Shown: in pieces, positions 1,657 to 56,285 of the stretch
How the letters are laid out: each line of letters begins with the position of its first letter
Position numbering within the stretch: position 1 is the stretch's first letter
Source: a virus
Lineage: Duplodnaviria; Caudoviricetes
Virus record (IMG/VR): IMGVR_UViG_3300028888_000057
DNA: 64,000 nucleotides
Direction: 5' to 3' (one strand)
Notes under the pieces: generated by a model
Seen by the model: the letters and a program-made list of their open reading frames with translations, nothing else
Told to the model about the DNA's origin: nothing
Databases searched by the model: none
Program-made: the position numbers and the translations under genes

Positions 1657-1931
1657 AGACAAAAGGTAGGTATAAAAGCCTGCTTTTTTATTTCAACATA
1701 CGTGAACAGAAGAGCTCTGAGTAATCAGAGTTCTTTTTTATATATCAACATGCATGAAGTACTCGCTCATGCATTACAACCGCAAAATCCCAGCGGTATG
1801 AGTGTGGCAATTGGGTGCCGTGCTATACGAAACATAGCTCAAGGCCGAGCAGGCGCATCTTAGCTCAAAGATGCAAATGTTTATCAATTCTATTTTGTTG
1901 TCTCTTAAGTGAGACAGAAAGGAAGGAAACC

Positions 1932-4900
1932 ATGTCTAAGATTAATACTTCTATTGCTGTCGTCTCCGCTCTGATCAACGAAGGGAAAATTCCGACGAAG
2001 GTGGCAAATGCTTTAGCGATTTCTCTGTCTGTAACCGAATTAAGACAGATCGTTGCCAACAATGCTCTTGACCGTCTCATGAAGATTGAAGGCATCGGTG
2101 AAAAGAGAGCTGCAACCATTATTAAGGTGCTTACTGGAAAGATCCCTCAGCGGCTTTCCGAGAGCCGCACCGGCAAGAAGATCAGCACTCGGGAACCGAG
2201 CGTAGGGTTCTCCCTTCGTTCGTTCGCTTCCAAGACCGTAATGAAGGAATATGTTCCGTACATCGAAGCGATAAATAATATCGAACTGTACAAAGAAACC
2301 GAAAACGGTCGTATGCTCGATGACGAAGCATTGCTTGATGCCCGTCAGGCATATGCTGAACTCAAGAAGTTTTCGAACGAACTGGACGAAAAGAACTTAC
2401 CGTTCTCTCTGTTCCAGAACGAAGGAACTATCTCACGGATGAGCCGCAGCATCGGCTCTGACATTTTCGGGATCGATTACACCTCAAAGAAACCGACAAC
2501 CGCATGGATTACTGTCGAACATGGAATCCAAGAGCTGATCAATTTCAATTGGCACGTTTTCGGCAACACGAAAACCGAAGCCGAAGCTGAAAAGAATCGC
2601 CTGCAGCAGGAAATCGAACACAGACTCGGTAACGCCGGTGTTCGGATGTATGTTGGCAACACGAGCGTAGAAAGCTCAATGATCCACTACGGTGGATTCG
2701 CAGCTTCAGCATCTCACCAGAAAGACGAGAAGTTGGTTATGGCTGACGCAAAACTTATGAAGCTTCATGAAGAAGCAATCTGGTTCACTATGAAGATGGC
2801 CGAAGTATTTGATCTTGAGATCAACGGAGCGGCAATTTGGAAAATGAGAGCAAACCTTCTTAGACCGATCCGTTGCGGTCTCAAAATCAAAGGTGGTCGC
2901 CAGCTTACGCTGAATGACATCGAAATTAAGGAACCGATCATTGTTAATCGTGTCATCAAGAACGCTCGAAAGATTGGTGAACTGAACGAAGAGACGGGTG
3001 AAATCTTCGAAGACGGCAAAATGGCTGTTGAAAAGACCTTGGCCGACGGCACTCTTATGTCTACCGTGGAACTCGAACAGTGGGGTCAGACCACTTCTTA
3101 TGGCATCAAGGGATGCTCGGGAGACGGAGCCGCTCCGATCAAGTACGCAGCGAAACTGGAAGGGAAAGAAGTTCCTTTGATGAAACCCATCCTTATGGAT
3201 GGGGGATGCTGGAAATTCGATAAAGTCAGATGTTCCTGGGAAGAATTCGTTCGTAGAGCGAACAAGCTCGCCGAACGGTATCCGAGTTTGAATAAACTCT
3301 GGCTGCTCCGCGAAGGAGACGAGCTGGAAGACGACGTTAAAGTTCGTCGACTGACTCGGAGTCTTATTCAGCAGTGGATCCATCTCGACGCTCGCGACAT
3401 CCGTATGATCACTAAGAAGAGCCGCAAGAGCCTGAACAAAATGAAGACCTTAAAGGGTGCTATCAACATGATGGCCGAGACTGGACGGGAAGAAAAGAGC
3501 CAGTTGGGTAAGGTGTTTGAGAAAGCACCGTGGCTGGTACTTAATCCTGAAGTTCAGAGATATCTCGAAACAAGGTTTGTCCGGAAACAGAGGGAAGCTG
3601 CGGCATGTAAGTTTAAGACGACTGGGTTTTATCCTTACATTCAGGAAGACTTTGTTGCCATCGCCCAAATTTGGGTGTTTGGTGCCGATTCCAACCGTAT
3701 GGATCTGGGCGTGTTGAAGGCAGGCGAAATGAGCGTCGCTGATGTGGCACCCAAGCAGAAAATGCTGGCAGTCCGGTTTCCTGCGAACTATCAGACCGCT
3801 GCCGTACGTATCAATGTGCCTTGTCGCGAAGCTTTCAGTTCTTGCAGCAACATCTGCATGATCTCAATCTACGACGATATCCTGATCCGTCAGGATGGTG
3901 ACGTAGATGGTGACGAAATGGCCATCATTCTGGATGAAATCGCAATAGCTGCGACTGAAAGAATGTACGAAGAGTTCAATCCTCCGGTTGTCGTGTTCGC
4001 ACACGGAGGAAAGGCTCCGAAGAAAAAGATCAGCAATCGGGCTGGTCTTATTGAAACTATGTATAATGACTTGTGGAAGGCCAAGAAGTTTGATGGCGTT
4101 GGAAAGTATGCCAATCTGGCAACTCTTTGTTGCCACCTTGCTTCTCTGGCTTATGCCCATGGAGATATGGACGAAGTTAAGATGCGCCTTGTTCAGATGT
4201 CTCTGGCATCGACTGGTGCTATCTTAGCGATTGACCAAGTGAAAGGCAACGCCGTCAGCGACGAGCTGATCGAGCGACTGGAACAGATCAGCAAGTCTGT
4301 CAGGAACCAGTGTCTGAACATGATGCCGTTCACTCAGCAGTTCGTCAAAGGCCTGAAGGCTGATGAAGTTCTGCCTGAAAGTGATGCTTTGTGTGATCAG
4401 ATGGCTGGTCTGATCATTCGCGATACCAACGACAAGGAAACCAACGGTTATAAACTTGAAGTTGGTAACGCGCAGTGGAACGCAAAGGAAGCGAAGCGGG
4501 CTATGCTCGACTTTGGCCTGAGAACGACTTCACTCCGGAACTCTCCTGTTCCGAAGAGCATTCTCGATACACTGGCGGATAACTGGTTCAACGACAAGAA
4601 CAATGCTGATCAGGAGACCTTCCGTCTGATCAAGGCTGGTCAGCCCGTTCAGATGAAGGATCTGGTACTTCTCATGTGGAGAAATGCATGTGCGTTGGAA
4701 TTCCGTATGACCGGGGATAATCTGACCGCCAAGCGGGAAGAGTATCTGAAGATTGTACGTGAAATGCTGTATACACAGGCAACCTCTGCTAAATGGGTTG
4801 GTAATGACGGGCACGTATTCACCGATGCCGAAAAGAAAGCTTCTGTCGTGAACGTTCTGGTGTATGATGCACTTAACATGAGCGGCAAAGGCAATGGTAT

Positions 4901-5180
4901 CGATGATGACAAGAAGGGATCCTATGCAATCTTCGTACTGAAGGTGTTTGCGAAGGAGATCCTCTGGTGTCTCGAACGGAACCATGCAGATGCCAACCTG
5001 TTCAACATCAAGTATGCGACTGCTACCGATCTGGAGATCGAAGAGTCCGCAGAAGCGATTGAGAACATTCTGGCCGACGGGTGGGGCAACATTGACGAAG
5101 ATCAGGAAGTGTGGTTCTCCGATGAGGATAACTACACAGACTATGATCTTGGCGACAATGACTATGTAGAAGAATGTTAA
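1932..5180 (+). CDS. single-subunit RNA polymerase, RdRP/YonO-like (copy 1), with N-terminal helix-hairpin-helix
   Basis: VRFP followed by RQDGDVDGDE (DxDGD metal-binding loop); AIDQVK motif; LMKIEGIGEKRA HhH; AGGAAGGA RBS before ATG 1932. Confidence 0.75.
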   Translation: MSKINTSIAVVSALINEGKIPTKVANALAISLSVTELRQIVANNALDRLMKIEGIGEKRAATIIKVLTGKIPQRLSESRTGKKISTREPSVGFSLRSFASKTVMKEYVPYIEAINNIELYKETENGRMLDDEALLDARQAYAELKKFSNELDEKNLPFSLFQNEGTISRMSRSIGSDIFGIDYTSKKPTTAWITVEHGIQELINFNWHVFGNTKTEAEAEKNRLQQEIEHRLGNAGVRMYVGNTSVESSMIHYGGFAASASHQKDEKLVMADAKLMKLHEEAIWFTMKMAEVFDLEINGAAIWKMRANLLRPIRCGLKIKGGRQLTLNDIEIKEPIIVNRVIKNARKIGELNEETGEIFEDGKMAVEKTLADGTLMSTVELEQWGQTTSYGIKGCSGDGAAPIKYAAKLEGKEVPLMKPILMDGGCWKFDKVRCSWEEFVRRANKLAERYPSLNKLWLLREGDELEDDVKVRRLTRSLIQQWIHLDARDIRMITKKSRKSLNKMKTLKGAINMMAETGREEKSQLGKVFEKAPWLVLNPEVQRYLETRFVRKQREAAACKFKTTGFYPYIQEDFVAIAQIWVFGADSNRMDLGVLKAGEMSVADVAPKQKMLAVRFPANYQTAAVRINVPCREAFSSCSNICMISIYDDILIRQDGDVDGDEMAIILDEIAIAATERMYEEFNPPVVVFAHGGKAPKKKISNRAGLIETMYNDLWKAKKFDGVGKYANLATLCCHLASLAYAHGDMDEVKMRLVQMSLASTGAILAIDQVKGNAVSDELIERLEQISKSVRNQCLNMMPFTQQFVKGLKADEVLPESDALCDQMAGLIIRDTNDKETNGYKLEVGNAQWNAKEAKRAMLDFGLRTTSLRNSPVPKSILDTLADNWFNDKNNADQETFRLIKAGQPVQMKDLVLLMWRNACALEFRMTGDNLTAKREEYLKIVREMLYTQATSAKWVGNDGHVFTDAEKKASVVNVLVYDALNMSGKGNGIDDDKKGSYAIFVLKVFAKEILWCLERNHADANLFNIKYATATDLEIEESAEAIENILADGWGNIDEDQEVWFSDEDNYTDYDLGDNDYVEEC

Positions 5181-9025: not shown

Positions 9026-9100
9026 GGGGCATTAACGCAACGGTAGCGTATCTGCTTTGCAAGCAGAAGGTTGCAGGTTCAAGTCCTGTATGCTCCACCA
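9026..9100 (+). tRNA. tRNA-Ala(UGC)
   Basis: GGGGCAT/ATGCTCC acceptor, TCTGC-TT TGC AA-GCAGA anticodon arm, GTTCAAG T-loop, encoded CCA. Confidence 0.9.
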
Positions 9101-9198
9101 CGACTGAGGGCGACGTTAGGGCGGTCGTAAAATAAAACTCTGAACAAGTCACTGTCAAAAGCCGGCAAATGTTTGACATACTTGACGTCGTATCTATC

Positions 9199-9267
9199 GA
9201 AGGTGTGGTGTAACGGTAACACGCGTCACCAGGAATGACGAGTCGCAGTTCGAATCTGACATCTTCG
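9199..9267 (+). tRNA. degenerate tRNA-like RNA, anticodon AGG (Pro?)
   Basis: GAAGGTG/CATCTTC acceptor, CGTCA-CCAGGAA-TGACG arm, TTCGAAT loop; C33 and imperfect T stem. Confidence 0.45.
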
Positions 9268-9401
9268 ACGTGTCGCGACTGATGTGTGGAGTTTTGATTT
9301 CTTTCGGCCATACAGAGAATGACAATCCAATGAAAGAAATAGCGGCATGGTGACAGCCGGTTGAAAAAGAAGGGCTCGCTACCCAGTCACCTTATCATTA
9401 T

Positions 9402-9488
9402 GGCTCGTTGGCGCAAATGGAAGATTCGCAAGTGATTTAAAATCACTCGGGGCATATCCCCATATCGGTTCGAGTCCGATACGAGCCA
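9402..9488 (+). tRNA. tRNA-Leu(UAA)
   Basis: GGCTCGT/ACGAGCC acceptor, AGTGA-TT TAA AA-TCACT, long variable arm, TTCGAGT T-loop. Confidence 0.85.
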
Positions 9489-9558
9489 CTGCTTCCTTTA
9501 TGGAAGCCCAACACCTCCTTTCATCATAAGGCCGCATGTCAAAGTGCGGCCGACTTAT

Positions 9559-9652
9559 CTCAGCTTAGTGTAACGGAGAGCACGACGGTCAACTGCATGC
9601 CACAGTAAACACTGTGTGACTGGATGAGACAGTTCGAATCTGTCAGCTGGGA
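9559..9652 (+). ncRNA. tRNA-like RNA with enlarged anticodon arm
   Basis: CTCAGCT/AGCTGGG acceptor, D arm, GACAG-TTCGAAT-CTGTC T arm; no 7-nt anticodon loop. Confidence 0.5.
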
Positions 9653-9697
9653 CTTGCCCATTTTCTGAATAGTGGGCATTCATTAACTAACTCTCCT

Positions 9698-9785
9698 TGA
9701 CGGTGTCTGTTTCTCAGCAAAGTCACATCGAAAGATGAAGCACTACTGGACTTAATCAGCCGTTCGATTCGGCTGGCCGTCACCA
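9698..9785 (+). ncRNA. tRNA-like RNA with acceptor, T arm and CCA but no canonical D/anticodon arms
   Basis: TGACGG../..CCGTCA-CCA, AGCCG-TTCGATT-CGGCT. Confidence 0.5.
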
Positions 9786-9786
9786 A

Positions 9787-9861
9787 TGGGGATTCGTATA
9801 TTGGCTATTACGCTCGGCTTTGACCCGAGAAAGGGCGGATCGTAACCGTCATCCCCAGCCA
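9787..9861 (+). tRNA. tRNA-Gln(UUG)
   Basis: TGGGGAT/ATCCCCA-GCCA, CTCGG-CT TTG AC-CCGAG; atypical T-loop ATCGTAA. Confidence 0.8.
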
Positions 9862-14254: not shown

Positions 14255-14341
14255 GCGAGGGTGGCAGAGTTGGCTGATCGCTCCGGTCTTGAAAACCGGT
14301 GAGCCTACTGGGCTCCGAGGGTTCGAATCCCTCCTCTCGCG
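14255..14341 (+). tRNA. tRNA-Ser(UGA)
   Basis: CCGGT-CT TGA AA-ACCGG, long variable arm, GTTCGAATCC. Confidence 0.9.
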
Positions 14342-14348
14342 CTATTAT

Positions 14349-14425
14349 GCACCCTTAGCTAAGTTGGTCGTAGCTGCGGCCTTGTAAGCCGTGTAATCAG
14401 CTGGGTTCGAGTCCCAGAGGGTGTA
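14349..14425 (+). tRNA. tRNA-Thr(UGU)
   Basis: GCACCCT/AGGGTGT, GCGGC-CT TGT AA-GCCGT, GTTCGAGTCC. Confidence 0.8.
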
Positions 14426-14510
14426 CAAACCGTCACATCCTTGCGGTATATAAATTTGGGTGTCGGCAAGCAGGGCCAAACTGCTGCAGGTGTGGTAGTC
14501 AGGCACATCG

Positions 14511-27043: not shown

Positions 27044-27049
27044 ATAAAG

Positions 27050-27390
27050 ATTGCCTGGACACGAAAATTCTAAACGATATTCTCTGTGAGTTTCGCGAAG
27101 TCTCTCAGGTCAAATAAATAAAACTTCGCTCCATGGTTTGTAGCGAAAGACTGTAAATCTTTCGAACAAAAGATTGCAACTGTTAACTGCAATTTGATGT
27201 TTAATAAACATATTTTCTCTGTAAAGCTCAAACCTGAAAGCTGAAAGCTGAAACTTTATCGTTAAAAGTTTAATTCGTGTAAAGATAAAGGATTATACAC
27301 TAAAGAGAAAAGTTAGATCAAATCCTGTGTAAAGGTTTGTCGGATGAATATCCTGCCGCTGAAGGCTCCGTCAGGCTGTGTTCAGGCAAT
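27050..27390 (+). ncRNA. candidate structured ncRNA of about 340 nt
   Basis: 13-bp terminal stem ATTGCCTGGACAC/GTGTTCAGGCAAT (one G.U), internal GCGAAGT/ACTTCGC stem, AAAGCTG repeats. Confidence 0.6.
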
Positions 27391-27523
27391 TATATTTTTA
27401 TAAATACCTTTCCGTTTTGTTTATATGCTTCAGGCGTTGTGCATTAAACAGCGCTTACCAGTCCCATCTGGGATGATATACCATACACATATCGAAAAAT
27501 TAGGAAAGAGAGGGATTAAAAGT

Positions 27524-28135
27524 ATGGTTAAGGTTACTGTTATTACTGCTGGAGGACGGAAGACTGACAATTTTGATGAGGCGATGACTCCGAAGGAAAT
27601 TTTGGAAGCGCTGGACGTGGATTATTCTGCGGCTACGAACTCTCTGGATGGCGCTCGTCTGGACACTCGGGGCATGAACACTTCGCTGCGTGAACTTGGC
27701 GTTGGTGAGACCGCTCGTATGACTTCCATTGTGAAGATCGACAATGCGGCTAACATCACGCTGGCTGGTTCTGCGGCCGTGGTGACCTCCGCCGTTTCTC
27801 TGGAAGATCTGAAGCGTGTGGAGAAGTTTGCTCCCGAAGCGCTGAAGATCGTGGACGAGGATGGAGAGACCGTATTCAAGGTCTGCACTCGGGAGAACTC
27901 TGCTGGTTCTATCAACAAGTACGGCGTTGTCTTCGGTTCTGTTGTGAATCATGAAGGCAAGGCGACCGTTACCGTCGTGATCGATCCTGATATCGAGGAC
28001 AAGCGGGAAGCGGTGAAGGACATGATGGGTGCTGCCATTCTGGACCTGAACTCGATCGAGAAGGAACTGCCTGAAGTCCTGAAGGATATCGCAGAAAAGG
28101 AGAAGGAGATCGAAGGCTGCATCGAGCAGAAGTGA
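27524..28135 (+). CDS. ubiquitin-like (beta-grasp) domain plus C-terminal extension
   Basis: MVKVTV..TPKEILE..LDG..L..SLRELGV..IVKIDNA; located upstream of E2-like, JAB and E1 genes. Confidence 0.65.
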   Translation: MVKVTVITAGGRKTDNFDEAMTPKEILEALDVDYSAATNSLDGARLDTRGMNTSLRELGVGETARMTSIVKIDNAANITLAGSAAVVTSAVSLEDLKRVEKFAPEALKIVDEDGETVFKVCTRENSAGSINKYGVVFGSVVNHEGKATVTVVIDPDIEDKREAVKDMMGAAILDLNSIEKELPEVLKDIAEKEKEIEGCIEQK

Positions 28136-28143
28136 TCTTCTTT

Positions 28144-28179
28144 GGAGGGCGGCTTGCGATAGTCGCCCTCCTTTTTTTT
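28144..28179 (+). terminator. intrinsic terminator/attenuator after the Ubl gene
   Basis: GGAGGGCGGCT/AGTCGCCCTCC stem followed by T-tract. Confidence 0.75.
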
Positions 28180-28205
28180 AGAAAAATTCAAGGAGATTAC
28201 GAAAA

Positions 28206-29627
28206 ATGTTTAGAAATAACGTTGAAGTATTTGACCCCATCCCAAAGGAATATCTTGATCAGTTCAAGAGACCGCTTAATTCGTTTGACTATGCGTTGGA
28301 TGTTCTTGGCCTTGCACTGCTGAAGCCAAGGATTGAAAATTATAATGGTATTGAAGGTGTCTTCTGTAGTTATGAATCTCTGCAGACAGCCGTTGAAGAT
28401 TGCAAACCTGAACTCAGAACGCAAAATCCACAGTTCTACTTTATAACATTCGAAAACAATAGCGAAGATGTTGATTTCTCCGCTTTCAAAGACTTCACTC
28501 GTTTCACAAGGTTTGAAGAATATCTTAAGAAGAATGCTGACCGCAACGCAGTAATCTTCTATCATGAAACTGAAAACATTGTTTATATCTTTATTGACAG
28601 CAGGCAGCTGAACATTTATCATCTATGTCTGTTCATGCTGTCCAAGTATTATCCGGCTCTGTTTAAAGCACATCCGTTAACTGAGAAGGAACTGATTCTG
28701 ACCAAGACGTTATCAAAAACGGATCGTGAGGCATTCCAGAATGAAATCATGAACAACCTTGGCGATCTGACTGAAGTGTTCAAGAAGATCCGAATCGCTT
28801 CTTTGATTCGTCAGTTCCACCAGAACAAGATCGATGTCGCAAAGAAGGATCTGGCACAGATCGAATCTATGCTTCGCGATGTTATGGAACAGTACGCAAA
28901 TTACTCCAAACAGCGGAAAGAAAAACTTGTGTGGCTGACAGGACTGAATGAAACGGAAAACGAAACTGAGGAAGAAAAGGAAATCGTTGAGTATCTGTCG
29001 ACCAACAGCAAGATTCACGACGTTAAGATTCAGGACGGGCGGATCAAGTTCAGCGTTGCAACAGAAATGATGCAGTATAATCCTGATGCATATGAAATCT
29101 ATGCAAAGAAAGGATATATCTTTGATGGCCACTATAACGAGTGGTGGGCAGACATGTCTACTTTGACAGGAGTGTTCGCAGAACGTGACAACAGAAAACT
29201 TCTGCTTGATCATATCTTCAATGAAGATCCTGATTATCGTATCAAGCTGTGTGGTAACTACGATCTGGATATGAACGATAATGAAGTCAGAACCAATTCG
29301 GATTATCGATACGTTGGATCTGCATTTGAAGACTGTTTGCCGAATCCGCATCTGAGAATTCATCGTTGCCTGGGTGGATATGAAGAAAAGATCATGAATG
29401 CTCTGTACAACAACGAACTGATGAGCGCACTGGAACTGTGCGTATATAGTGCTGGATCTGTCGATCTGGACGAAACTGAACAGACCTTCCGGCCACTGAT
29501 TGGCTGGCTTTGTACTACTCAGAAGAAATGCCTGTTGGATCGAGACGGAAACAGTTTAACGCCGGAAGAAGCGATTGTTCAGATCAAAGACAAGGAGAAA
29601 GAAAATGAAGCCGATTGTGCTGACTGA
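28206..29627 (+). CDS. coiled-coil protein with putative prokaryotic E2-like C-terminal domain
   Basis: PNPHLRIHRCLGGY resembles the E2 active-site His..Cys region; operon context. Confidence 0.55.
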   Translation: MFRNNVEVFDPIPKEYLDQFKRPLNSFDYALDVLGLALLKPRIENYNGIEGVFCSYESLQTAVEDCKPELRTQNPQFYFITFENNSEDVDFSAFKDFTRFTRFEEYLKKNADRNAVIFYHETENIVYIFIDSRQLNIYHLCLFMLSKYYPALFKAHPLTEKELILTKTLSKTDREAFQNEIMNNLGDLTEVFKKIRIASLIRQFHQNKIDVAKKDLAQIESMLRDVMEQYANYSKQRKEKLVWLTGLNETENETEEEKEIVEYLSTNSKIHDVKIQDGRIKFSVATEMMQYNPDAYEIYAKKGYIFDGHYNEWWADMSTLTGVFAERDNRKLLLDHIFNEDPDYRIKLCGNYDLDMNDNEVRTNSDYRYVGSAFEDCLPNPHLRIHRCLGGYEEKIMNALYNNELMSALELCVYSAGSVDLDETEQTFRPLIGWLCTTQKKCLLDRDGNSLTPEEAIVQIKDKEKENEADCAD

Positions 29628-30444
29628 TAAAGCAAAAGAAGTAATGATGAAGCACTTCATGGAGAAATTCAACAAAGCTCTCGATGAATATGCGTTCAAT
29701 ATTGACAAGAAAAAGTTTTCCTTTGAAGCTGAGATAAATCAAGTTGCCAAAGAAAAGGTTCATATTGTTTATAGCCCGACAGCATATCTGAGAATGCTGA
29801 AGCTTGTTAATTATTATGAGTCTGAAGTAACTTGGTATGGTTTGGTTAAGAGGCTCGACGAAAAGACGTATCATGTCTATGATGTGATCGTTTGTCCGCA
29901 GTACGTATCTGGTGCCAAAGTCGATACGGATGATGATGAAACGATGGAGTTCTTCGGTAATCTGACGGATGAGCAGGCTGAAAATATGTATTATCAGGCG
30001 CATAGTCATGTGAACTTCTCGACCGAAGCTTCTGGTGTTGACTTGCAGAATCAGATTGATATTCTGGGTAATATGCTGAATAAAGATGGATTCTTCCTGT
30101 TCCAGATTTGGAACAAGAAAGGAGAAGTCAGCACTTATCTGTATGATCTCGGAGCCAACATCTTCTACGATTCCAAAGATGTAGTCATGGAGATCGAAGA
30201 TCCGGATTATGAATCTCTGGATGCGTTTGTCGAAGCCAATAAATCCTTGGTGAAAAAAAGAGAAGTAAAACCAGTCGCAAACATCGGAAGAAACGATGGA
30301 TGGTACGGTGATTGGCCGAAAGGCGCAGCCGGATACGGATCTGGTTACGGTTCCGGTTATTATGGTGGATACAACAGAAATGATGATGCATATTATGTAA
30401 ATGGATACAATTATCAGAATGGGAGGTTCTTTGACGAAGAATGA
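29605..30444 (+). CDS. JAB/JAMM metallopeptidase
   Basis: ESEVTWYG..HSHVNFSTEASGVD (E..HxH..S..D); Gly/Tyr-rich tail. Confidence 0.8.
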   Translation: MKPIVLTDKAKEVMMKHFMEKFNKALDEYAFNIDKKKFSFEAEINQVAKEKVHIVYSPTAYLRMLKLVNYYESEVTWYGLVKRLDEKTYHVYDVIVCPQYVSGAKVDTDDDETMEFFGNLTDEQAENMYYQAHSHVNFSTEASGVDLQNQIDILGNMLNKDGFFLFQIWNKKGEVSTYLYDLGANIFYDSKDVVMEIEDPDYESLDAFVEANKSLVKKREVKPVANIGRNDGWYGDWPKGAAGYGSGYGSGYYGGYNRNDDAYYVNGYNYQNGRFFDEE

Positions 30445-31127
30445 ACTTAGCAAAGAGTTTTGAATTCTTTAATCCTGAAAAGGTAAAGGATCGTATTCAT
30501 ATTATCGGATGTGGTTCTGTCGGATCAACGGTTGCAGAACTGTTAATTCGGGATGGTCTGAAGAACTTCAGCCTGTACGATTTTGATACAGTAGAAGAAC
30601 ATAATCTTGTAAACCAGATGTTCACCGGGGACGATCTGTATAAGCCTAAAGCACACTGTGTAAAGAATCGGATGATCCATGTGGTTCCTGAGTCTGATCG
30701 AAAAGAACTCAGCGAAACGATCAAGGTGTATGATAAAGGCTGGACGGGTCAGAGGCTGTCTGGTTACATTTTCCTCTGTGTGGATAATATCGAACTTCGA
30801 AAGAAGATCGTGGAAGACAACATGTATAATAACTCTGTCAAAGCGATGTTTGATTTCAGAACGGCACTGACAAGTGGTCAGCACTATGCAGCTGACTGGT
30901 CTGACGCAAAACAGATTGCAGATTTGTTGGACACAATGGATTTTACACATGCAGAGGCTGAAAAGAACACACCGCTGTCTGCCTGTAAGGTATCGATGTG
31001 TGTCGCTCCGACGGTCTGGGCTGTAGCGATGGCCGGGGTTGTAAACTTTATGAACTTTGTAAAGGACGGAATCATTCGGAATCAAGTTATTGTAAACCCG
31101 TTTGATTTCAATATCATTGAACTTTAA
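30441..31127 (+). CDS. ThiF/E1-like adenylyltransferase
   Basis: IHIIGCGSVGS..LYDFDTVEEHNLVNQ..K..LCVDN..R; candidate catalytic Cys in SAC. Confidence 0.9.
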   Translation: MNLAKSFEFFNPEKVKDRIHIIGCGSVGSTVAELLIRDGLKNFSLYDFDTVEEHNLVNQMFTGDDLYKPKAHCVKNRMIHVVPESDRKELSETIKVYDKGWTGQRLSGYIFLCVDNIELRKKIVEDNMYNNSVKAMFDFRTALTSGQHYAADWSDAKQIADLLDTMDFTHAEAEKNTPLSACKVSMCVAPTVWAVAMAGVVNFMNFVKDGIIRNQVIVNPFDFNIIEL

Positions 31128-31131
31128 TGAA

Positions 31132-31412
31132 TTATCATAATGAAAACGTAGAAATACTCTTTAGATGTTATTTAAAGGAACGATTGGCTGGATGAGTAGG
31201 TCGCTGCGGGCAGGTCCTGAAGGCGCCCAGTGGAGTGTCGATCCGCTGGCAGAGAGGCTGGACGGAGGTGGCAGGTCAGCGCGATCCGACTGAAAACCGG
31301 GAAAGTGGAGATTCAAATCCGGAGAAGACGACCAATTGGATCTCGAACGCGTCCAGCGGGCCCTGGAGGAGCACCTCGTGCGGCAGCGGATTTTCCTTTT
31401 AGATTATGATAA
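31132..31412 (+). ncRNA. retron-like (msr-msd-like) ncRNA
   Basis: Terminal inverted repeat TTATCATAAT/ATTATGATAA plus four nested stems; GC-rich island directly upstream of the RT. Confidence 0.6.
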
Positions 31413-31422
31413 GGATAATAAT

Positions 31423-32547
31423 ATGATTTACATAACAAGAAAAAGAATTGCAATACCCAAACAAGTGACTTTGGAAGACATCTTGTTGGACCGAGAAATT
31501 CCGGAGTTAAAAGATATAGGAACAAGCACACTGACAAGAGTTTATCCTGAAACTCCAGATGAGCTTAAACATTGTTTCAATATTGATTTATTAATCAAAT
31601 GGTTGAATGACTTCAATGAACGACATGCTGAGCTATTCCAAAGAGATAGAAACAGTATGTATTATCAGTTCAAAATACCAAAGAAAACAGGAGGATTCAG
31701 AGAAATTGATGCTCCTGTCAAAGAGTTGCAGAGCGCGCTAACAGAAGTGGTTAATTTTCTAAAGAATCAATGCAATATTCTGTATCATACGGCGGCATTT
31801 GCCTATATCGAAGAGAGAAGCACGGTAGATTGTGTCAGAAGACATCAGAAAAACAATAGCAATTGGTTCCTGAAACTGGATATTAAGAGCTTCTTTCCAA
31901 GCACTACGCTGAAGTATCTGATGCACATCAGCAGCATGACGTATCCACTGTCGGAAATCTGCAAGGTTCCAGAGGGAAAGTCAGCGTTGGAGAGGACATT
32001 CAGTCTTGCTTTTAAAGATGGCAAATTGCCACAGGGAACAACATTAAGTCCGTTGATTTCGAACATTGTAATGTTGCCAATAGACTTTAAGGTCTTCAAT
32101 ACATTGGCAGCAAGAAAGATTGTATATACTCGTTACTGCGATGATATGATTATCTCGGCTCAGGAGAAGTTTCCGTGGCAGGAAGTTGTAAAGATTGTCA
32201 AAGATGCTTTTACAGAAATGGGAGCACCATATCGGATCAATGACGAAAAGACAAGGTTTGGATCAAAGAAAGGAAGTAACTTTAATCTCGGATTAATGCT
32301 GAATGGAAACAATGATATCACTGTAGGTTATAAGGCGAAGAAACGCTATAAAGCTGCGCTGTGTTCATTTATCCAGGATACAATCCATGGAAATCGTTGG
32401 CCGCTGGAAGATGTAACGCATCTGAACGGGCTGACAAGTTACTATCGCTATCTGGAGAAAGAATATTTTGATCAGATATGGAAAAGAGCAAGCGAAAAGT
32501 GGAACGTAGATATTGGTGCTTTGTTTAAATCATATCTATCAACGTAA
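31423..32547 (+). CDS. reverse transcriptase, retron-like
   Basis: IPKKTGGFREIDAP, AFAY..CVRRH, KLDIKSFFPS, LPQG..LSPLISN, YTRYCDD; AAGGA RBS before ATG 31423. Confidence 0.92.
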   Translation: MIYITRKRIAIPKQVTLEDILLDREIPELKDIGTSTLTRVYPETPDELKHCFNIDLLIKWLNDFNERHAELFQRDRNSMYYQFKIPKKTGGFREIDAPVKELQSALTEVVNFLKNQCNILYHTAAFAYIEERSTVDCVRRHQKNNSNWFLKLDIKSFFPSTTLKYLMHISSMTYPLSEICKVPEGKSALERTFSLAFKDGKLPQGTTLSPLISNIVMLPIDFKVFNTLAARKIVYTRYCDDMIISAQEKFPWQEVVKIVKDAFTEMGAPYRINDEKTRFGSKKGSNFNLGLMLNGNNDITVGYKAKKRYKAALCSFIQDTIHGNRWPLEDVTHLNGLTSYYRYLEKEYFDQIWKRASEKWNVDIGALFKSYLST

Positions 32548-32691
32548 ACAATGAAGAGGCAGTTACATGCACTTTTGATGTGATTAGAAGAGAAGAAATG
32601 GTATTTAGTCTGATGATACTATCGGTATTTTCAGGGATAAATTCCTGAAAATACAGCTATTATCATAACTAAAGTTTAGATTGTTTACTTT

Positions 32692-32726
32692 TAGTGCGGA
32701 TGCCTCGGGTGTCCGCACTATTTTTT
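32692..32726 (+). terminator. intrinsic terminator ending the Ubl-RT unit
   Basis: TAGTGCGGAT/GTCCGCACTA stem followed by T6. Confidence 0.8.
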
Positions 32727-32758
32727 CATGTTATGCAATTATATTTGATAAAATCTTT

Positions 32759-32844
32759 GAAGCCATGCGAAACGAGCCTTAAAGGTAAAACACAAAATAG
32801 TTAGGTACCGAACTATGAAGCCATGCGGAACACAACATAAAGGA
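32759..32844 (+). promoter_or_regulatory. tandem copies 3 and 4 of the GAAGCCATG..TAAAGG motif upstream of RNAP 2
   Basis: Two direct copies with the AGTTAGGTACCGAACT palindrome between them. Confidence 0.55.
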
Positions 32845-32906
32845 AGAGAAAATTATTCCGTATCGGAATTCACATAAATAAAAGATGATGGAAGGGGGCT
32901 CAACAT

Positions 32907-34475
32907 GTGTCTTCGGTGAAGACATACCTGCAAGATCAGGTAAGGTTGGTAACGCTGAGCAGTAACGATTTATTTACAGATGATGAATATAGTCAATATG
33001 TAAAGATCGTGCAGCTAGGCAACACGTACAACGAAAGGATCGGAAAAGGAGAAGACAAGGATACTCTGAAGCCAATTCTCCGGGAAAAAGAAAAGCTCAA
33101 AGAAAAATTGTCAACAACTATTCAGAAAAGAGGGGAGAATCCTCGGGTTGTTAATCTGAACATGGTTGTTCATCATTCCAAAGACTCTCCATTTCCATTT
33201 CCGAAAGGTATTACGTGGAAAAATCTCAAAATCACACGCAGGATTGCAGAATTTTCATGTGAACTGACAAGAGCAATGGGTCTCAATAATCTGGACTGTA
33301 CGCTTGATCTGATCGTGATTAAATGGAAAGACTTGAATCTTCTGAAGCAGCTGGTACTGTATGGATTCTATATGCCGATTCTCCATGGAGACGAAGTTGA
33401 AATGAGACACTATCAGTTTCTGACTGCATCAGCCGGACAGTTGAGACGCGACAAAACAATCTTCATTTCGGATGAGATGTGGAACAAGATTCACAGACGC
33501 ATCGAGTGTGGAATGAACTGGGAAAGAATCAATGTTCATGGAGGTATCGTCGCAAATAAACTGCTGGCTTATATTGCGTTGGCTAACAGTGCTACGGATG
33601 TCTGGACGGACTTTGATATTGACCGGTGTATTGTCATAGACGATTTCGAGGCTGAAGTAACTGATCGAATGATGTATATTAAGGAAGATTATACATATGA
33701 GATCGGTAAACGAACGGTAATGATCAACCACACTGATGGATGTGGAATGATGCTGCCAACAGTCTCGAAACTGAATTTTATGACAAGACTGCCATTCATC
33801 AAAGGATTGCTTGTGAGCTTTGATTATATTAAATTCTGCAAAGTCAATAATGTTCCTCCGATTATCAAGGATATTTATGGCAAAGAACATGACCTGATTA
33901 AAGAAAATATACAGATAATCTTTACGAAGAGTATGTTCAAAGCCTATAAGTATTTTGAAAGCTTCGAAGAGTACAAAGCAGAATTTAAAGCATGTGGCGC
34001 ACAGGCCGGAATTACCAATTATGAAGAAGAGTATATTCCGGATGCGACATTGAATTATCAATTCATTCAAACACTAGTAAATTTTACTGATGAGGAGATA
34101 CAACAATTCATCAAAAATGATCATGATAAGATTGAAAAGCTTGGAACCAACAAAGATTCAATGTTGAACACGTTGGGAGCCAGAAAGGAATCTGACAATC
34201 CTTATAAAGCGGCGCTGGCATACTATCCGGAACTGTTGAGAGAAGCGTATAGCAAAGAAACGATTCGAGCGATCAGGAAGAGTATGATGCTGGATGCAAA
34301 GTCTGGAAAGATTCACTGCGAAAACAAGAGATTGTTTGCAGTACCTGATCTCTACGCCGCCTGTGAGCGGTGGTTTATGGGGATCGAAGAACCAGAAGGA
34401 TTGTTAAGGGGAAATGAAATAGCTTGTCTGCCGTATAGAAGGCATGATAAAGCAGATGTTCTAAGAAGTCCGCAT
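32907..34475 (+). CDS. YonO-like single-subunit RNA polymerase (copy 2), exon 1
   Basis: TASAGQLR, HTDGCGM, RLPFIKG, LNYQFIQTL; ends ..LRSPH at the intron. Confidence 0.85.
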
Positions 34476-35512
34476 TAACATAGGTGCCTTTACACAGTAA
34501 TGTGTATCGAAAAATGTGGTTAACCTGTAAATACAGGGTGTCGCTGAAAAGCGGCTAACGGAGAACGAACTAAACGATAGAGTTTGGAGGTGAGAAAATG
34601 AGCAAGCTTAAAGATTTAACTGGACGGATGTTTGGATTTCTTTACGTTCAAAGAAGAATGCCTAATTATGTTCAAGAAAACGGAAGAACAAGAACGAGAT
34701 GGCTAACAACGTGTCTCTTGTGTGGAAAAGCTTATGTTGCAGATGGTAGTCATTTGCTGCACGGTGATATTATTAGTTGTGGCTGTTTTAAGAACATGAA
34801 AAGCGCATTAAGAGGTCAAGAATATACAGGCGTCCAGAAACCAATTCGAGATTTGACCGGCATGAAATTTGGATATCTTAGAGTAATTGAAAGATGCGAA
34901 AATTTTGGGCCAAAAACAGCATGGTTATGTTTGTGTGAGAATTGTGGCAGTTATACAAAGGTTCGCTCGAATCATCTCCTTCGAGGATTAGTATCCAGTG
35001 ATGGCTGTATAAAGTCTGTAAGAGAAGAGCAAATGGCAAAATGGTTTAATGAACACAAAATTCCATTTGAAAGAGAATATACTTTTCCAGACTTATTAGG
35101 CGAAGGTGGAAGTAATCTAAGATTCGATTTTGGTTTAATAGACAAGAAAAATAATTTAATTTGTTTAGTTGAATATCAAGGAGAACAACATGGTTTAGAT
35201 AAAACTGGAGAGTTTGGCAGACAACAAAGAGAACAAACTGACAAACAAAAAATTGATTATTGTTTAATAAACCATCTTGCTTTTCAAAGTGTTTGGTACA
35301 ATAGAGATTTTGAAGAGCAAATGCAAGAAATCGAAAAGTTCTATCGCAAGTCAACTGCCGTGCCAAACCGGAAAACCGGAAGGTGTATCGACTATCCCGA
35401 GAGGGAGTAGGGTTCAAGTGAAACTCTTGAATTCGAAACGCCACACAACCCGTAAGGGCTGATGACATAGTCAACTCCGCTACGAAATATCGGGAAACCG
35501 ACGGTACGAAGG
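34476..35512 (+). mobile_element. group I intron in RNAP 2
   Basis: Exon ends in U with P1 GCAT/GTGC (U.G); P7 elements CGACTA..CATAGTC; terminal G at 35512; splicing restores RSPH-LA-MEH in frame. Confidence 0.85.
34598..35410 (+). CDS. intron-encoded homing endonuclease (DLTG..FG.L.V Zn repeats plus a PD-(D/E)xK/Vsr-like nuclease domain)
   Basis: Two DLTGxxFGxLxV..CxxCG repeats; LRFDF..VEYQGEQH. Confidence 0.75.
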   Translation: MSKLKDLTGRMFGFLYVQRRMPNYVQENGRTRTRWLTTCLLCGKAYVADGSHLLHGDIISCGCFKNMKSALRGQEYTGVQKPIRDLTGMKFGYLRVIERCENFGPKTAWLCLCENCGSYTKVRSNHLLRGLVSSDGCIKSVREEQMAKWFNEHKIPFEREYTFPDLLGEGGSNLRFDFGLIDKKNNLICLVEYQGEQHGLDKTGEFGRQQREQTDKQKIDYCLINHLAFQSVWYNRDFEEQMQEIEKFYRKSTAVPNRKTGRCIDYPERE

Positions 35513-36760
35513 TTAGCAATGGAACATTTTATCTGCCCAATTGTTCATGATCAGAAAATATATGATTGGTTTTATACAAACGGAGTCGTAACTTCTTGTC
35601 ACAGCATGGTATCGAGGGTGCTCCAGTTCGATGTCGATGGAGATCAACTTAACGTAATTGTTGATCCGTTATTCATTAAGGTTGCTGAAAAGAATATCAA
35701 AGAGTTTGACGTGGTTCCATTATTCTATGACGCAGAGAAAGGTGATGCTACTCTGATGTCAAAGGAGGCACAGTTTGAAGGTCTGAAGATTGCCCATGAA
35801 TATTCAGGTATCGGAGAAATATCAAACATGCTGACAAGACTATGGAATCGAAATACTCAGGACAGGATTGCTGCCGCATTTCTTTGCAGATTTAACAACG
35901 CTGTGATCGATGCAGCAAAGATTGCCAAGATCAATCACTATAATCAGTATCCTGAAATTGAAAAACGTATCAACAAAGCTATAGGAGGCAAGAACTCACG
36001 TATGCCTGCTTGGTTCAAGTACTCTAAGAATCAGAGGAAAAATGGCAATGAACACAAGCAGTATGCAAAACCCAATAACTCAACAATGAACCGAATATCT
36101 TCTTACTTTGATGATATTGGAAAGATCAACATGAATTTTGCTGGGGTGCCGTCATTCAACTGGCAAATGCTTCTCAGCGGGCCGTGTACAAATACATGGC
36201 CGGAAATTCCAATGCTGTTCTGTGAGATGGATAATGTTAATATTTCTAACGTAATCGAATCTCATGACATTCCTTATGCATCTGAGAAACAGAAGATCAA
36301 TGGTTATTCCATGATGGCAGAAATGATCAAGGATGAAATCATTGATCAGTTTGGTTCGTTAGAAACTGCATATCCGTATGTAGTAAAACATCTGTTTGCA
36401 GGAGAAGGTATGAATAAAGCCGCTCACAAACAGATGTTCTGGCGCGTGTTTGGCAATATTGCGCTGGAAAACTTAAAGAAAAATGTTAACAACTGTGATG
36501 TTTGTCCGGATTGTAAGATGAGAATCCCATCGTGGGTGAAGGATCATTATTGTGTGAAGAATACATCCGGCTTCTATGAATGTATAGATTGCCATAAGAT
36601 GTGTGAAAGAACTTCTTCATCGCAATATCGATGCGCAGATTGTCAAAATAAATATCGACTAACACAAAGAAAACTGGCTCAGAGAAACCGTCGAAACCAA
36701 TTGAAAGAGGATGAAGAGAAACGTATTGTTTCCTGGCTATCGTCCTTCAGGGAGATATAA
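35513..36760 (+). CDS. YonO-like RNA polymerase, exon 2
   Basis: LQFDVDGDQ catalytic loop, N..IDAAK, C-terminal Zn ribbons. Confidence 0.85.
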   Translation, partial: LAMEHFICPIVHDQKIYDWFYTNGVVTSCHSMVSRVLQFDVDGDQLNVIVDPLFIKVAEKNIKEFDVVPLFYDAEKGDATLMSKEAQFEGLKIAHEYSGIGEISNMLTRLWNRNTQDRIAAAFLCRFNNAVIDAAKIAKINHYNQYPEIEKRINKAIGGKNSRMPAWFKYSKNQRKNGNEHKQYAKPNNSTMNRISSYFDDIGKINMNFAGVPSFNWQMLLSGPCTNTWPEIPMLFCEMDNVNISNVIESHDIPYASEKQKINGYSMMAEMIKDEIIDQFGSLETAYPYVVKHLFAGEGMNKAAHKQMFWRVFGNIALENLKKNVNNCDVCPDCKMRIPSWVKDHYCVKNTSGFYECIDCHKMCERTSSSQYRCADCQNKYRLTQRKLAQRNRRNQLKEDEEKRIVSWLSSFREI

Positions 36761-38494: not shown

Positions 38495-38687
38495 TAAGTA
38501 AATAATAATCTGCAATGAGCTACCGAGTGAGAACTTGGTTCTGTTGATGTAATTAGCAGATTCGAAAAGGTAAATAATCGAGTTTCCTGGCTGCCAAACT
38601 AGGGCAGCCAGGAAACTCATAACAAAATAAATCTTAAGATTGCAGAAAAATATAAAAAAAGGGAAAAAGAAAGGAACAGAAAATATT

Positions 38688-56011: not shown

Positions 56012-56280
56012 GTCAATTACCCACGACTAAAGTCGCGGGCTTGTGGAAATGAGCCTGGAGTTGACTAGCCTAAGGTTTTCGGAACCTACGTTGAGAGAGT
56101 CAGAACACCCATGGACGTATCACCTAATCTGTGGCTCTGTTGATCTTCATTAAAAGTTCTGCTGGGTAGAAACGGTGTGACGGTCACGACAAGCTCTTTC
56201 AACATTGGCGAAGGTGACATAACGGCTTCATACGCGCCGGTTTACAGCTTAAAGCGTATAAGTATTAAAGAAAGGACGTG
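56012..56280 (+). ncRNA. omegaRNA scaffold of IscB
   Basis: GTCAAT..GTTGAC closing stem, CTACGTT and CATTGGCGAAGG motifs upstream of iscB. Confidence 0.75.
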
Positions 56281-56285
56281 CCGTA

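What the first reader, a model, noticed from the sequence alone, without database searches (positions are those of the whole stretch)
27524..32726. Phage ubiquitin-like conjugation operon running into a retron-like RT and ncRNA
Seen: co-oriented and tightly packed genes for a Ubl-domain protein, an E2-like protein (PNPH..CLG), a JAB peptidase (HSH..S..D) and a ThiF/E1. Within 5 nt of the E1 stop a structured GC-rich RNA begins, followed by an intact RT (YCDD) and a terminator. Established: E1-E2-JAB-Ubl sets form prokaryotic conjugation systems (Bil defence, CBASS Cap2/Cap3), and retrons are RT + ncRNA + effector sensors. Inference: a phage-borne system in which RT-DNA controls, or is the substrate of, Ubl conjugation, for anti-defence or phage-phage exclusion. 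I do not know a described retron type with a full Ub-like effector set.
Basis: partly seen in the sequence, partly recalled or inferred. Interest (0 to 1): 0.88.

Follow-up and report, generated by a model that had tools for sequence, protein, structure and literature searches.

The report
Phage retron coupled to ubiquitin-like kit
A large uncultured phage carries one conserved gene block that joins a complete ubiquitin-like protein-tagging kit to a retron-type reverse transcriptase with three template RNAs; I found this pairing in no paper I could search, and its purpose is unknown.

Summary

**Protein kit (27524-31127)**
- A ubiquitin/SUMO-fold protein is fused to a second domain (D2).
- A 473-aa protein has a UBC/RWD-like C-terminal domain with invariant N..H..C.G.
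- A JAMM/JAB peptidase has the complete E..HSH..S..D motif.
- The E1 is a minimal ThiF-type enzyme of 228 aa.

**Retron part**
- Five bases after the E1 stop, an RNA with retron anatomy begins: a covarying a1/a2 helix, an invariant G after a1, and a covarying hairpin.
- An intact retron-class RT follows. Its best profiles are St85/type II-A, below cutoff.
- A second RNA unit and a terminator come next. A third unit lies about 6 kb downstream.

**Conservation**
- The block was collinear in nearly all ~95 phage or MAG loci examined. RT identity falls to 33% and the flanks vary.
- RT-first sampling leads back to the same cassette.

**Reading**
- Most likely this is a new phage-borne retron type with a Bil-like Ubl conjugation set in the effector position.
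- The Ubl ends in Asn-Ala, not Gly.
- Function and the coupling mechanism are inferred.
- Earlier notes of this scan report the same cassette on other DNA (at least 16 genomes).

The parts
27524..27748 (+). Ubl domain (75 aa) of the Ubl-D2 fusion gene; ends ...K-I-D-N-A
   Evidence: AF2 pLDDT 94. SUMO/ubiquitin/ISG15 matches: Foldseek prob 1.0, TM 0.58-0.70; VIA Z 8-9.4, including 8tyz_B. In distant loci it is a separate 75-aa ORF that stops right after ...NA.
27749..28135 (+). D2 domain (128 aa, beta-sheet plus long C-terminal helix) fused to the Ubl; coordinates include the stop codon
   Evidence: In most distant loci it is a separate ~131-aa gene placed upstream of the Ubl gene. Both Ubl and D2 were detected in 62 of 73 loci with enough upstream DNA. 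There is only a weak START/AHSA1-like resemblance (TM about 0.5).
28144..28181 (+). Terminator-like hairpin (11 bp, 8 G-C) plus T-run after the Ubl-D2 gene
28206..29627 (+). E2-like protein: N-terminal alpha/beta domain, 65-residue coiled-coil helix (186-250), UBC/RWD-like C-terminal domain with N380-P-H382...C388-L-G390
   Evidence: AF2 pLDDT 90. RWD matches: 4nf9_A Z 7.2 (92 aa), 8q5h_K 6.8, Ltn1 9gy4_F 6.5, 8aaf_e 6.3, RNF25 RWD 2day 5.9. Invariant H382, C388 and G390. No Pfam, NCBIfam or PDB sequence hit.
29644..30444 (+). JAB/JAMM metallopeptidase (266 aa)
   Evidence: Invariant E61, H120-S-H122, S130, D133. Profile hit to Rpn11, E 6.8e-5. PADLOC JAB E 0.01. Its stop overlaps the E1 start (ATGA).
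30441..31127 (+). Minimal E1 (ThiF-type adenylation domain, 228 aa)
   Evidence: Pfam ThiF 1.3e-20. Closest solved structures are UBA5, MoeB, MccB, Cap2 and ThiF. Invariant GxGxxG and C182.
31132..31412 (+). ncRNA unit A. a1 31132-31141; candidate branch G 31142; hairpin 31158-31178 (loop ATGTTAT); GC- and purine-rich variable cargo 31185-31397; TTTAG 31398-31402; a2 31403-31412
   Evidence: Anchored a1/a2 test: 11 of 16 units pair 8/8, mean WC 7.3 against 4.7 for swapped partners. Hairpin: 94% of cells paired against 34-47% when slid, 5 of 7 pairs changed on both sides. CM R1 scores 47 bits.
31423..32547 (+). Retron-class reverse transcriptase (374 aa, YCDD)
   Evidence: NCBIfam retron St85 RT 186 bits, cutoff 235. 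PADLOC RT_II-A 1e-51. Invariant Y238, D240, D241, H141, G290.
32544..32688 (+). ncRNA unit B. a1' 32544-32552 (overlaps the RT stop); G 32553; hairpin with loop ATGTGAT 32578-32584; TTTAG 32675-32679; a2' 32680-32688
   Evidence: Perfect 9-bp a1'/a2' helix read. The same layout, with different covarying helices, occurs in L005, L008, L010, L013, L016 and L019. The CM hits the hairpin.
32692..32726 (+). Intrinsic terminator (13-bp stem plus T-run) closing the operon
38509..38646 (+). ncRNA unit C, just upstream of the primase gene. a1'' 38509-38516; G 38517; hairpin 38540-38560 (loop ATGTAAT); perfect 16-bp cargo hairpin 38580-38618; TTAAG 38634-38638; a2'' 38639-38646
   Evidence: CM R1 21.6 bits, E 7e-4 with filters off. 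Helices read. A relative (L087) has a comparable distal hit.

Best explanation
This is a phage-borne retron of a new type. A retron-class RT and at least three msr/msd-like ncRNAs are operonically coupled to a Bil-like ubiquitin-like conjugation set, which sits where retrons keep their effector.

**Proposed working**
1. The Ubl-D2 gene has its own terminator and is probably expressed in excess. The JAB peptidase cuts the fusion at or next to the invariant Asn-Ala and frees the Ubl C-terminus.
2. The minimal E1 adenylates that C-terminus. The Ubl then passes as a thioester to Cys388 of the E2-like protein and on to lysines of target proteins.
3. The RT primes on the 2'-OH of the G that follows each a1 arm and copies the variable cargo into RT-DNA.
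4. The RT/RT-DNA complexes bind the conjugation machinery and gate or direct it, so that tagging happens only in a particular infection state. A likely docking site is the N-terminal domain and coiled coil of the E2-like protein.

**Shown here**
- The folds and motifs of the proteins.
- The conservation of the RNA architecture.
- The strict gene linkage.

**Inferred**
- The order of the enzymatic steps.
- Production of RT-DNA.
- The gating step.
- The biological purpose (phage-phage exclusion or counter-defence).
For: **Components**
- Ubl fold.
- Complete JAMM motif and Rpn11 hit.
- ThiF/E1.
- UBC/RWD-like domain with invariant Cys, spaced 8 residues from an Asn as in the E2 HPN...C motif.
- Retron-class RT in all 21 family members scanned.

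**RNA**
- Covarying a1/a2 helix anchored on an invariant G and a conserved TTTAG.
- Covarying hairpin.
- Units repeated on both sides of the RT and distally.

**Linkage**
- All four core proteins are present in 67 of 67 non-identical viral loci, while each flanking position holds 24-36 different protein families.
- The cassette persists down to 37% E1 identity in MAGs of Clostridia and a Lishizhenia MAG.
- RT-first sampling returns the cassette.
- There is no terminator between the E2-like gene and the end of ncRNA B, and JAB and E1 overlap by ATGA.

**Processing**
- Ubl and D2 are fused here but are separate genes elsewhere, and the separate Ubl ORFs stop exactly after ...NA.
- In type II Bil the JAB pre-processes the Ubl one residue before its end (bioRxiv 10.1101/2023.09.26.559546).
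Against: - No experiment exists: RT-DNA, thioesters and conjugates are all unobserved.
- The E2 assignment rests on modest structural scores (Z about 6-7, to RWD domains rather than catalytic E2s). Foldseek found nothing.
- The retron motifs NAxxH and VTG are kept only in their most conserved residue, H141 and G290. The St85 profile score is below NCBI's cutoff.
- The cargo regions do not fold better than shuffles on average; z ranges from -3.4 to +1.0.
- One relative (L042) has lost the RT and ncRNA A by a 1.5-kb deletion yet keeps the Ubl genes at 97% identity.
- Two relatives (L068, L035) have almost no E1-RT spacer.
- All loci belong to related phages, so part of the linkage could be shared ancestry.
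Confidence: 0.68

Rival explanations
1. Two independent systems, a Bil-like Ubl operon and a stand-alone retron, merely sit side by side. They were inherited together in one phage lineage and have no functional coupling.
For: - All loci come from related large phages of gut or rumen Clostridia-type hosts.
- L042 keeps the Ubl genes after losing the RT.
- Stand-alone retron cassettes exist in bacteria (PMC7736814).
Against: - The flanks turn over (24-36 families per position), yet the block stays intact in 67 of 67 non-identical loci, down to 33% RT and 20% E2-like identity.
- Extra genes or extra RNA units inserted between E1 and RT did not separate them.
- No terminator lies between E1 and the RNA, which starts 5 nt after the E1 stop.
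- RT-first sampling found no member of this RT clade without the cassette.
Confidence: 0.1
2. The RT or its RT-DNA is the substrate rather than the regulator. The Ubl would be attached to the RT, or to the nucleic acid itself, giving a protein-DNA conjugate.
For: - The Ubl ends in invariant Asn-Ala instead of Gly.
- MccB, an E1-like enzyme that joins a C-terminal Asn to a nucleotide, is among the closest solved relatives of the E1.
- The RT has a family-specific conserved N-terminal extension of about 75 aa.
- CBASS Cap2 conjugates its partner enzyme. This point is established knowledge, not tested here.
Against: - An E2-like protein with an invariant Cys argues for an ordinary thioester relay to lysines.
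- UBA5, MoeB, Cap2 and ThiF score similarly to MccB.
- Nothing here indicates a nucleic-acid acceptor.
Confidence: 0.1
3. The block serves the phage's own replication or transcription programme rather than conflict. For example, RT-DNA could act as a primer or decoy and Ubl tagging could remodel host or phage replication proteins.
For: - The block lies in the early/replication region: next to the split YonO-like RNA polymerase, with primase, helicase-like ATPase, PD-(D/E)XK nuclease and DNA polymerase downstream.
- ncRNA unit C sits directly upstream of the primase gene.
- The cassette is very widespread in this phage group: 3800 E1 homologues at E <= 1e-20.
Against: - The RNA cargo is hypervariable and the a1/a2 arms turn over quickly. 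That pattern is typical of conflict systems.
- A natural RT deletion exists.
- All characterised retrons and Bil systems act in phage-host conflict (PMC7736814; 10.1101/2023.09.04.556158).
Confidence: 0.1

Closest known systems
Retrons (RT + msr/msd ncRNA + effector; 13 types in Mestre et al. 2020, PMC7736814); nearest RT profiles are type II-A / St85 (Sen2)
   Same: - The RT scores best against retron profiles.
- The ncRNA abuts the RT, has covarying a1/a2 arms and an invariant G right after a1, and carries a conserved stem-loop and variable cargo.
- Accessory genes lie in the same operon.
   Different: - The accessory module is a four- or five-protein Ubl conjugation set, absent from all 13 types.
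- It is carried by large phages rather than by bacterial defence islands.
- There are several ncRNA units per RT, on both sides of it and distally.
- The NAxxH and VTG motifs are reduced to H and G.
- The RT has a conserved N-terminal extension of about 75 aa.
- The St85 profile score is below its cutoff.
BilABCD (type I and II bacterial ISG15-like / ubiquitination-like anti-phage operons; bioRxiv 10.1101/2023.09.26.559546 and 10.1101/2023.09.04.556158)
   Same: - The same four activities occur in the same gene order: Ubl, E2, JAB, E1.
- The Ubl resembles the Ubl chain of the solved bacterial E1-E2-Ubl complex (8tyz_B, Z 8.9).
- JAB pre-processing of a C-terminally extended Ubl is implied.
   Different: - No Bil, Prok-E2 or related profile hits the Ubl, E2-like or JAB proteins.
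- The E1 is a single 228-aa adenylation domain, not the IAD+AAD+CYS architecture of BilD.
- The Ubl ends in Asn-Ala rather than the universally conserved Gly.
- The E2-like protein carries an extra N-terminal domain and a coiled coil.
- A D2 protein and a retron are added.
- The system is encoded by the phage, not by the host.
Type II CBASS Cap2/Cap3 and the 6A-MBL cap2_3 system
   Same: The E1 Rossmann region matches Cap2-type 'E1-E2' profiles (PADLOC 1.5e-16; NCBIfam 6A-MBL cap2_3 62.7 bits). A JAB partner is present.
   Different: The matches cover only about 80 residues and lie far below the cutoff (62.7 against 320). E1 and E2 are separate proteins here. There is no CD-NTase, and a dedicated Ubl is present.
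PRTRC cassette (ParB-related, ThiF-related; NCBIfam TIGR03735-03742)
   Same: A ThiF-type E1, a JAB protein and a small beta-grasp protein in one mobile-element cassette.
   Different: PRTRC_ThiF scores 29 bits against a cutoff of 144.75. No other PRTRC model hits. There is no ParB, and an RT is present.

Membership tests
Retron | RT belongs to the retron/retron-like clade | tested here: met
   The best profiles are all retron RTs: NCBIfam St85 186 bits, against group II intron 77 and Drt2 52. PADLOC RT_II-A 1e-51; all 21 family members match retron models. No tree was built, and the St85 cutoff of 235 is not reached.
Retron | NAxxH motif (region X) and VTG triplet (RT7), as in PMC7736814 | tested here: inconclusive
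   Only the residues that paper calls most conserved are kept: H141 (CVRRH here, mostly AVKRH in relatives) and G290 (NLG in place of VTG).
Retron | Adjacent ncRNA with a1/a2 inverted repeats and a conserved branching G at the end of a1 | tested here: met
   Of 16 units, 11 pair 8/8 when anchored on a G (5' side) and TTTAG (3' side). There are 13 distinct a2 sequences. Swapped partners reach 8/8 in 3.6% of cases. The same holds for units B and C.
Retron | Production of branched msDNA (2'-5' RNA-DNA) | not testable with these tools
   Needs expression and gel or sequencing assays.
Retron | Assignment to one of the 13 described types by its accessory gene | tested here: not met
   The accessory genes are Ubl, D2, E2-like, JAB and E1. 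Mestre et al. 2020 has no occurrence of ThiF, JAB or ubiquitin.
BilABCD | Beta-grasp Ubl | tested here: met
BilABCD | Universally conserved reactive C-terminal Gly on the Ubl (10.1101/2023.09.26.559546) | tested here: not met
   The conserved end is (D/S)-N-A. Separate Ubl ORFs stop after NA.
BilABCD | E2 with UBC fold and catalytic Cys | tested here: inconclusive
   RWD (UBC-like) matches at Z 5.9-7.2 over 92-127 residues, and invariant C388. No catalytic E2 appears in the list. The whole-model search was dominated by the coiled coil, and the domain was not folded alone.
BilABCD | JAB deubiquitinase | tested here: met
BilABCD | E1 with inactive and active adenylation domains plus a CYS domain | tested here: not met
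   A single ThiF domain fills the 228-aa protein; homologues are 221-230 aa.
BilABCD | Sequence-profile membership | tested here: not met
   At the thresholds used, no PADLOC, NCBIfam or Pfam family hits the Ubl or the E2-like protein, apart from chance-level hits. The JAB protein has only a PADLOC JAB hit at E 0.01.
PRTRC cassette | PRTRC_ThiF and partner models above cutoff | tested here: not met
   29 bits against 144.75; no partner model hit.
DRT2-type template-jumping RT (Neo) | Continuous ORF across the template repeat; Drt2-class RT | tested here: not met
   Drt2 profile 52 bits, against 186 for the retron profile. No frame is consistently open in the 16 cargo regions; the open minus-strand frames follow from low T content.

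The most novel reading that the evidence does not exclude
The RT-DNAs are part of the tagging chemistry itself rather than mere switches. Either they act as programmable E3-like specificity factors that bring the E2-like enzyme to nucleic-acid-bound targets, or the Ubl, with its unusual Asn-Ala end and an E1 as close to MccB as to ThiF, is joined covalently to the RT/RT-DNA. Either case would give a protein-nucleic acid conjugate with several fast-evolving cargo sequences.
Probability: 0.12. Interest if true: 0.95.

Novelty: new variant of a known kind. Interest (0 to 1): 0.8.

Why it matters
Retrons and bacterial ubiquitin-like conjugation (Bil, CBASS Cap2/3) are two recently understood arms of phage-host conflict. 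Here they appear welded into one operon, on the phage side.

- If the coupling is real, it defines a 14th retron type whose effector is a post-translational modifier rather than a toxin.
- It offers a natural case in which reverse-transcribed DNA may control or direct protein tagging.
- It shows a Ubl that does not use a C-terminal glycine.
- The family is large: about 3800 E1 homologues at E <= 1e-20, and more than 150 RT clusters at 50% identity. It is common in gut and rumen viromes, yet no cultured phage in the collection searched carries it.
- The compact RT with several interchangeable ncRNA cargos may also interest retron-based genome engineering.

Tried and rejected
- **Rfam.** No family matches the RNA at 31000-32900.
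- **Whole-spacer fold.** Energy is not significant (z -1.6). Cargo regions of 16 units give z from -3.4 to +1.0, so the case for the RNA rests on covariation, not energy.
- **Unconstrained longest-helix search.** Uninformative in AT-rich sequence: matched mean 9.25 bp against mismatched 8.4. It was replaced by the anchored test.
- **Neo-like ORF in the cargo.** Not consistent.
- **Origin of the GC-rich cargo of unit A.** No match in 50,697 phage records, in 400 Clostridia-class genomes, or elsewhere in the window and 117 loci.
- **E2-like protein.** Foldseek against PDB found nothing. PDB sequence profile gave only coiled-coil noise. The ESM Atlas gave only a weak Prok-E2_D lead (score 0.78, 11% of members).
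- **D2 domain.** Only weak START/AHSA1-like similarity. It was not folded alone, so its fold is undecided.
- **Viral-contig scan with the E2-like protein alone.** Found nothing because of pattern limits.
- **DNA-level search of the locus against phages.** Only a 40-nt hit.
- **Extra ORF (216-301 aa) between E1 and RT in one clade.** Only sub-threshold DUF6273 hits.
- **RT tree.** No tree against reference retron, UG or DRT clades was built.

Full report
**Context.** The window is a large low-GC phage contig.
- No host genome is held for it.
- It encodes a tail-fibre protein (phrog_1491), a YonO-like RNA polymerase split by an HNH gene, and a family-B-like DNA polymerase.
- It also encodes a primase, a PD-(D/E)XK nuclease, an RNA ligase and ThyX, seven tRNAs and a HEARO/IscB element.
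- No record in the phage collection resembles the locus at the DNA level.

**Protein genes.**
- *Ubl-D2.* The first gene starts at 27524 and encodes 203 aa. With an alignment of 25 homologues, AlphaFold gives pLDDT 94. Residues 1-75 form a beta-grasp that matches SUMO, ubiquitin and ISG15 (Foldseek prob 1.0, TM by target 0.58-0.70, rmsd about 3 A). VIA gives Z 8-9.4, including the Ubl chain of a solved bacterial E1-E2-Ubl complex (8tyz_B: Z 8.9, rmsd 2.0, 74 aa).
- *D2.* Residues 76-203 are a beta-sheet with a 40-residue C-terminal helix and have no clear relative.
- *E2-like protein.* The 473-aa protein (28206-29627) has no sequence-level family but folds with pLDDT 90. An N-terminal alpha/beta domain and a 65-residue helix precede a C-terminal domain with the order helix, two strands, insert, two strands, N380-P-H382, C388, three helices. 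This domain matches RWD domains, members of the UBC-like superfold: Knl1 at Z 7.2 and 6.8, Ltn1 at 6.5 and 6.3, RNF25 at 5.9. H382, C388 and G390 are invariant and N380 nearly so in 23 homologues at 18-36% identity. The Asn-to-Cys spacing of eight equals that of the E2 HPN...C motif (established knowledge). I call it E2-like, with the caveat that no catalytic E2 was among the listed matches.
- *JAB.* The protein (29644-30444) keeps E61, H120-S-H122, S130 and D133 invariant. Its profile hits Rpn11 (E 7e-5).
- *E1.* The protein (30441-31127) is a single ThiF domain (E 1.3e-20). It is closest to UBA5, MoeB, MccB, Cap2 and ThiF among solved structures. It has an invariant GxGxxG and an invariant Cys182. 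That Cys182 is the crossover-loop catalytic cysteine is my inference.

**The Ubl C-terminus.**
- In the window's clade the Ubl is fused to D2.
- In more distant clades D2 and Ubl are separate genes in the order D2, Ubl, E2-like. There the 75-aa Ubl ORFs stop directly after ...(D/S)-N-A, once after ...NAA.
- Both parts were detected in 62 of 73 loci with enough upstream sequence.
- The mature end is therefore at the invariant Asn-Ala, and the fused form must be cut, presumably by the JAB. In type II Bil the DUB trims the Ubl one residue before its end (10.1101/2023.09.26.559546).
- A non-glycine reactive end separates this family from all characterised Ubl systems.

**The RT.** The coding region is 31423-32547; the longer TTG ORF from 31336 runs through the RNA.
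- It scores 186 bits on NCBIfam's retron St85 model (cutoff 235), against 77 bits for group II intron RT and 52 bits for Drt2.
- All 21 family members scanned match retron models, with RT_II-A first.
- Y238, D240 and D241 are invariant. Of the retron signatures NAxxH and VTG, only H141 and G290 are kept (definitions from PMC7736814).

**The RNAs.**
- *Helix a1/a2.* The E1-RT spacers of the window and 14 relatives show a short helix between the first bases after the E1 stop and the bases just before the RT ribosome-binding site. It has 13 different sequences, always followed on the 5' side by a G and preceded on the 3' side by TTTAG.
- *Anchored test.* 11 of 16 units pair at 8 of 8 positions, with mean Watson-Crick 7.3 against 4.7 for swapped partners. 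Only 3.6% of swapped pairs reach 8/8.
- *Hairpin.* A 7-bp hairpin with loop ATGTNAT is paired in 94% of cells, against 34-47% when the partner is slid. Five of its seven pairs change on both sides.
- *Cargo.* The roughly 200-nt cargo between the hairpin and TTTAG is unalignable and purine-rich. It is GC-rich here but not everywhere.
- *Interpretation.* This is the anatomy of a retron msr/msd RNA, with G31142 as candidate branch point.
- *More units.* A covariance model of the hairpin region found two tandem units in L006 and L010, possibly three in L075, an untrained hit in L012, and weak hairpin hits just after the RT stop in about eleven loci.
- *Unit B.* Following that up, a complete second unit lies at 32544-32688: a 9-bp a1'/a2' helix, G32553 and loop ATGTGAT. 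The same layout, with different covarying helices, occurs in six relatives.
- *Unit C.* A third unit lies at 38509-38646 with a perfect 16-bp cargo hairpin, directly upstream of the primase gene.
- *Terminators.* They follow the Ubl-D2 gene and unit B; there is none in between.

**Linkage.**
- *E1-first sampling.* An E1 profile fetched 80 IMG/VR loci. Ubl/D2, E2-like, JAB, E1 and RT are collinear in all loci that extend far enough, with one exception. L012 ends too early to tell.
- *The exception.* L042 has a 1.5-kb deletion that removes ncRNA A and the RT. The deletion lies between repeated sequence, and the rest is 97% identical to L041.
- *Genome collection.* Seventeen loci, mostly Clostridia MAGs, carry the cassette. 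One is a prophage-like region in a Clostridiales Family XIII isolate, and one is a Lishizhenia MAG at 37% E1 identity. In the 15 of these whose contig extends past E1, the RT follows E1.
- *Core versus flanks.* Among 67 non-identical viral loci the four core proteins are always present, while the three positions on either side hold 24-36 different protein families each.
- *RT-first sampling.* The best 150 clusters (at 50% identity) of a 1.8-billion-protein library all have E below 1e-59. Of three contexts looked up at the weak end, two informative ones show E2-like-sized, JAB-sized and ThiF genes upstream; the third contig starts at the RT.
- *Other evidence.* Metagenome contigs of 97-161 kb show the same order. 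About 3800 E1 homologues reach E <= 1e-20.
- *Cultured phages.* None in the collection carries the RT. The only full-length hit is an uncultured faecal contig.

**Interpretation.**
- The simplest reading is a retron whose effector slot is filled by a Bil-like Ubl conjugation set. The steps are given under Best explanation.
- Shown: the folds and motifs, the RNA architecture and its covariation, and the gene linkage.
- Inferred: RT-DNA synthesis, the E1-to-E2 relay, JAB processing at Asn-Ala, any gating of conjugation by RT/RT-DNA, and the biological role.
- The rivals cannot be excluded computationally: mere adjacency, RT or RT-DNA as substrate, or a role in the phage's own replication programme.

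**Literature.**
- Mestre et al. 2020 lists 13 retron types, none with ThiF, JAB or ubiquitin.
- A 2024 survey notes retron-like RT clades in viruses without describing neighbours (PMC13681634).
- Five full-text searches found no paper on the pairing. Subscription journals are not covered.

**Earlier notes of this scan.** They describe the same cassette in at least 16 other genomes and reach the same reading. I treated them as leads only. My evidence comes from the calls cited above.

Noticed in passing
window 32907-36760: A YonO-like, RdRP-fold RNA polymerase (phrog_8308, 847-aa profile) is split into two ORFs, 32907-34478 and 35519-36760. An HNH homing-endonuclease gene (34598-35410) lies between them. 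Relatives encode it as one ~940-aa protein.
   Followed up: partly
window 56012-57590: A HEARO/omega RNA (Rfam RF02033, 128 bits) is followed by an IscB-type protein (RRXRR + HNH, 434 aa). This is an RNA-guided nuclease element inside the phage.
   Followed up: partly
L042 6754-6799 versus L041 6798-8338: A natural 1.5-kb deletion removes ncRNA A and the RT. It lies between about 45 nt of repeated sequence, as expected for recombination between the two RNA units that flank the RT.
   Followed up: partly
L006 6661-7204; L010 6673-7269; L075 6685-7764: Two (L006, L010) or possibly three (L075) tandem retron-like RNA units with unrelated cargo lie between E1 and RT.
   Followed up: partly
L032 6694-7491, L043 6697-7536, L063 3480-4310, L077 7007-7840, L081 4186-5091: In one clade an extra ORF of 216-301 aa sits between E1 and the RNA/RT. 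It gives only sub-threshold DUF6273 hits and may be an added cassette component.
   Followed up: partly
L068 6675-6685; L035 3536-3722: Two relatives have almost no E1-RT spacer, so their template RNA, if any, must lie elsewhere. GC-rich stretches follow the RT.
   Followed up: no
window 27044-27523: A 480-nt non-coding stretch lies between the tail-fibre gene and the Ubl gene. It contains short 'gctgaaa' repeats. The hairpin model does not hit it, and relatives also have long gaps here.
   Followed up: no
window 1815-5180: A 1121-aa ORF lies in a locally GC-rich (0.47-0.48) part of the contig and has no Pfam family.
   Followed up: no
window 9026-9861 and 14255-14426: Seven tRNA genes lie in two clusters: Ala, Pro, Leu, Gln x2, Ser, Thr. 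Two of them (Gln-CTG, 95 nt, and Pro-AGG) are called only by ARAGORN.
   Followed up: no
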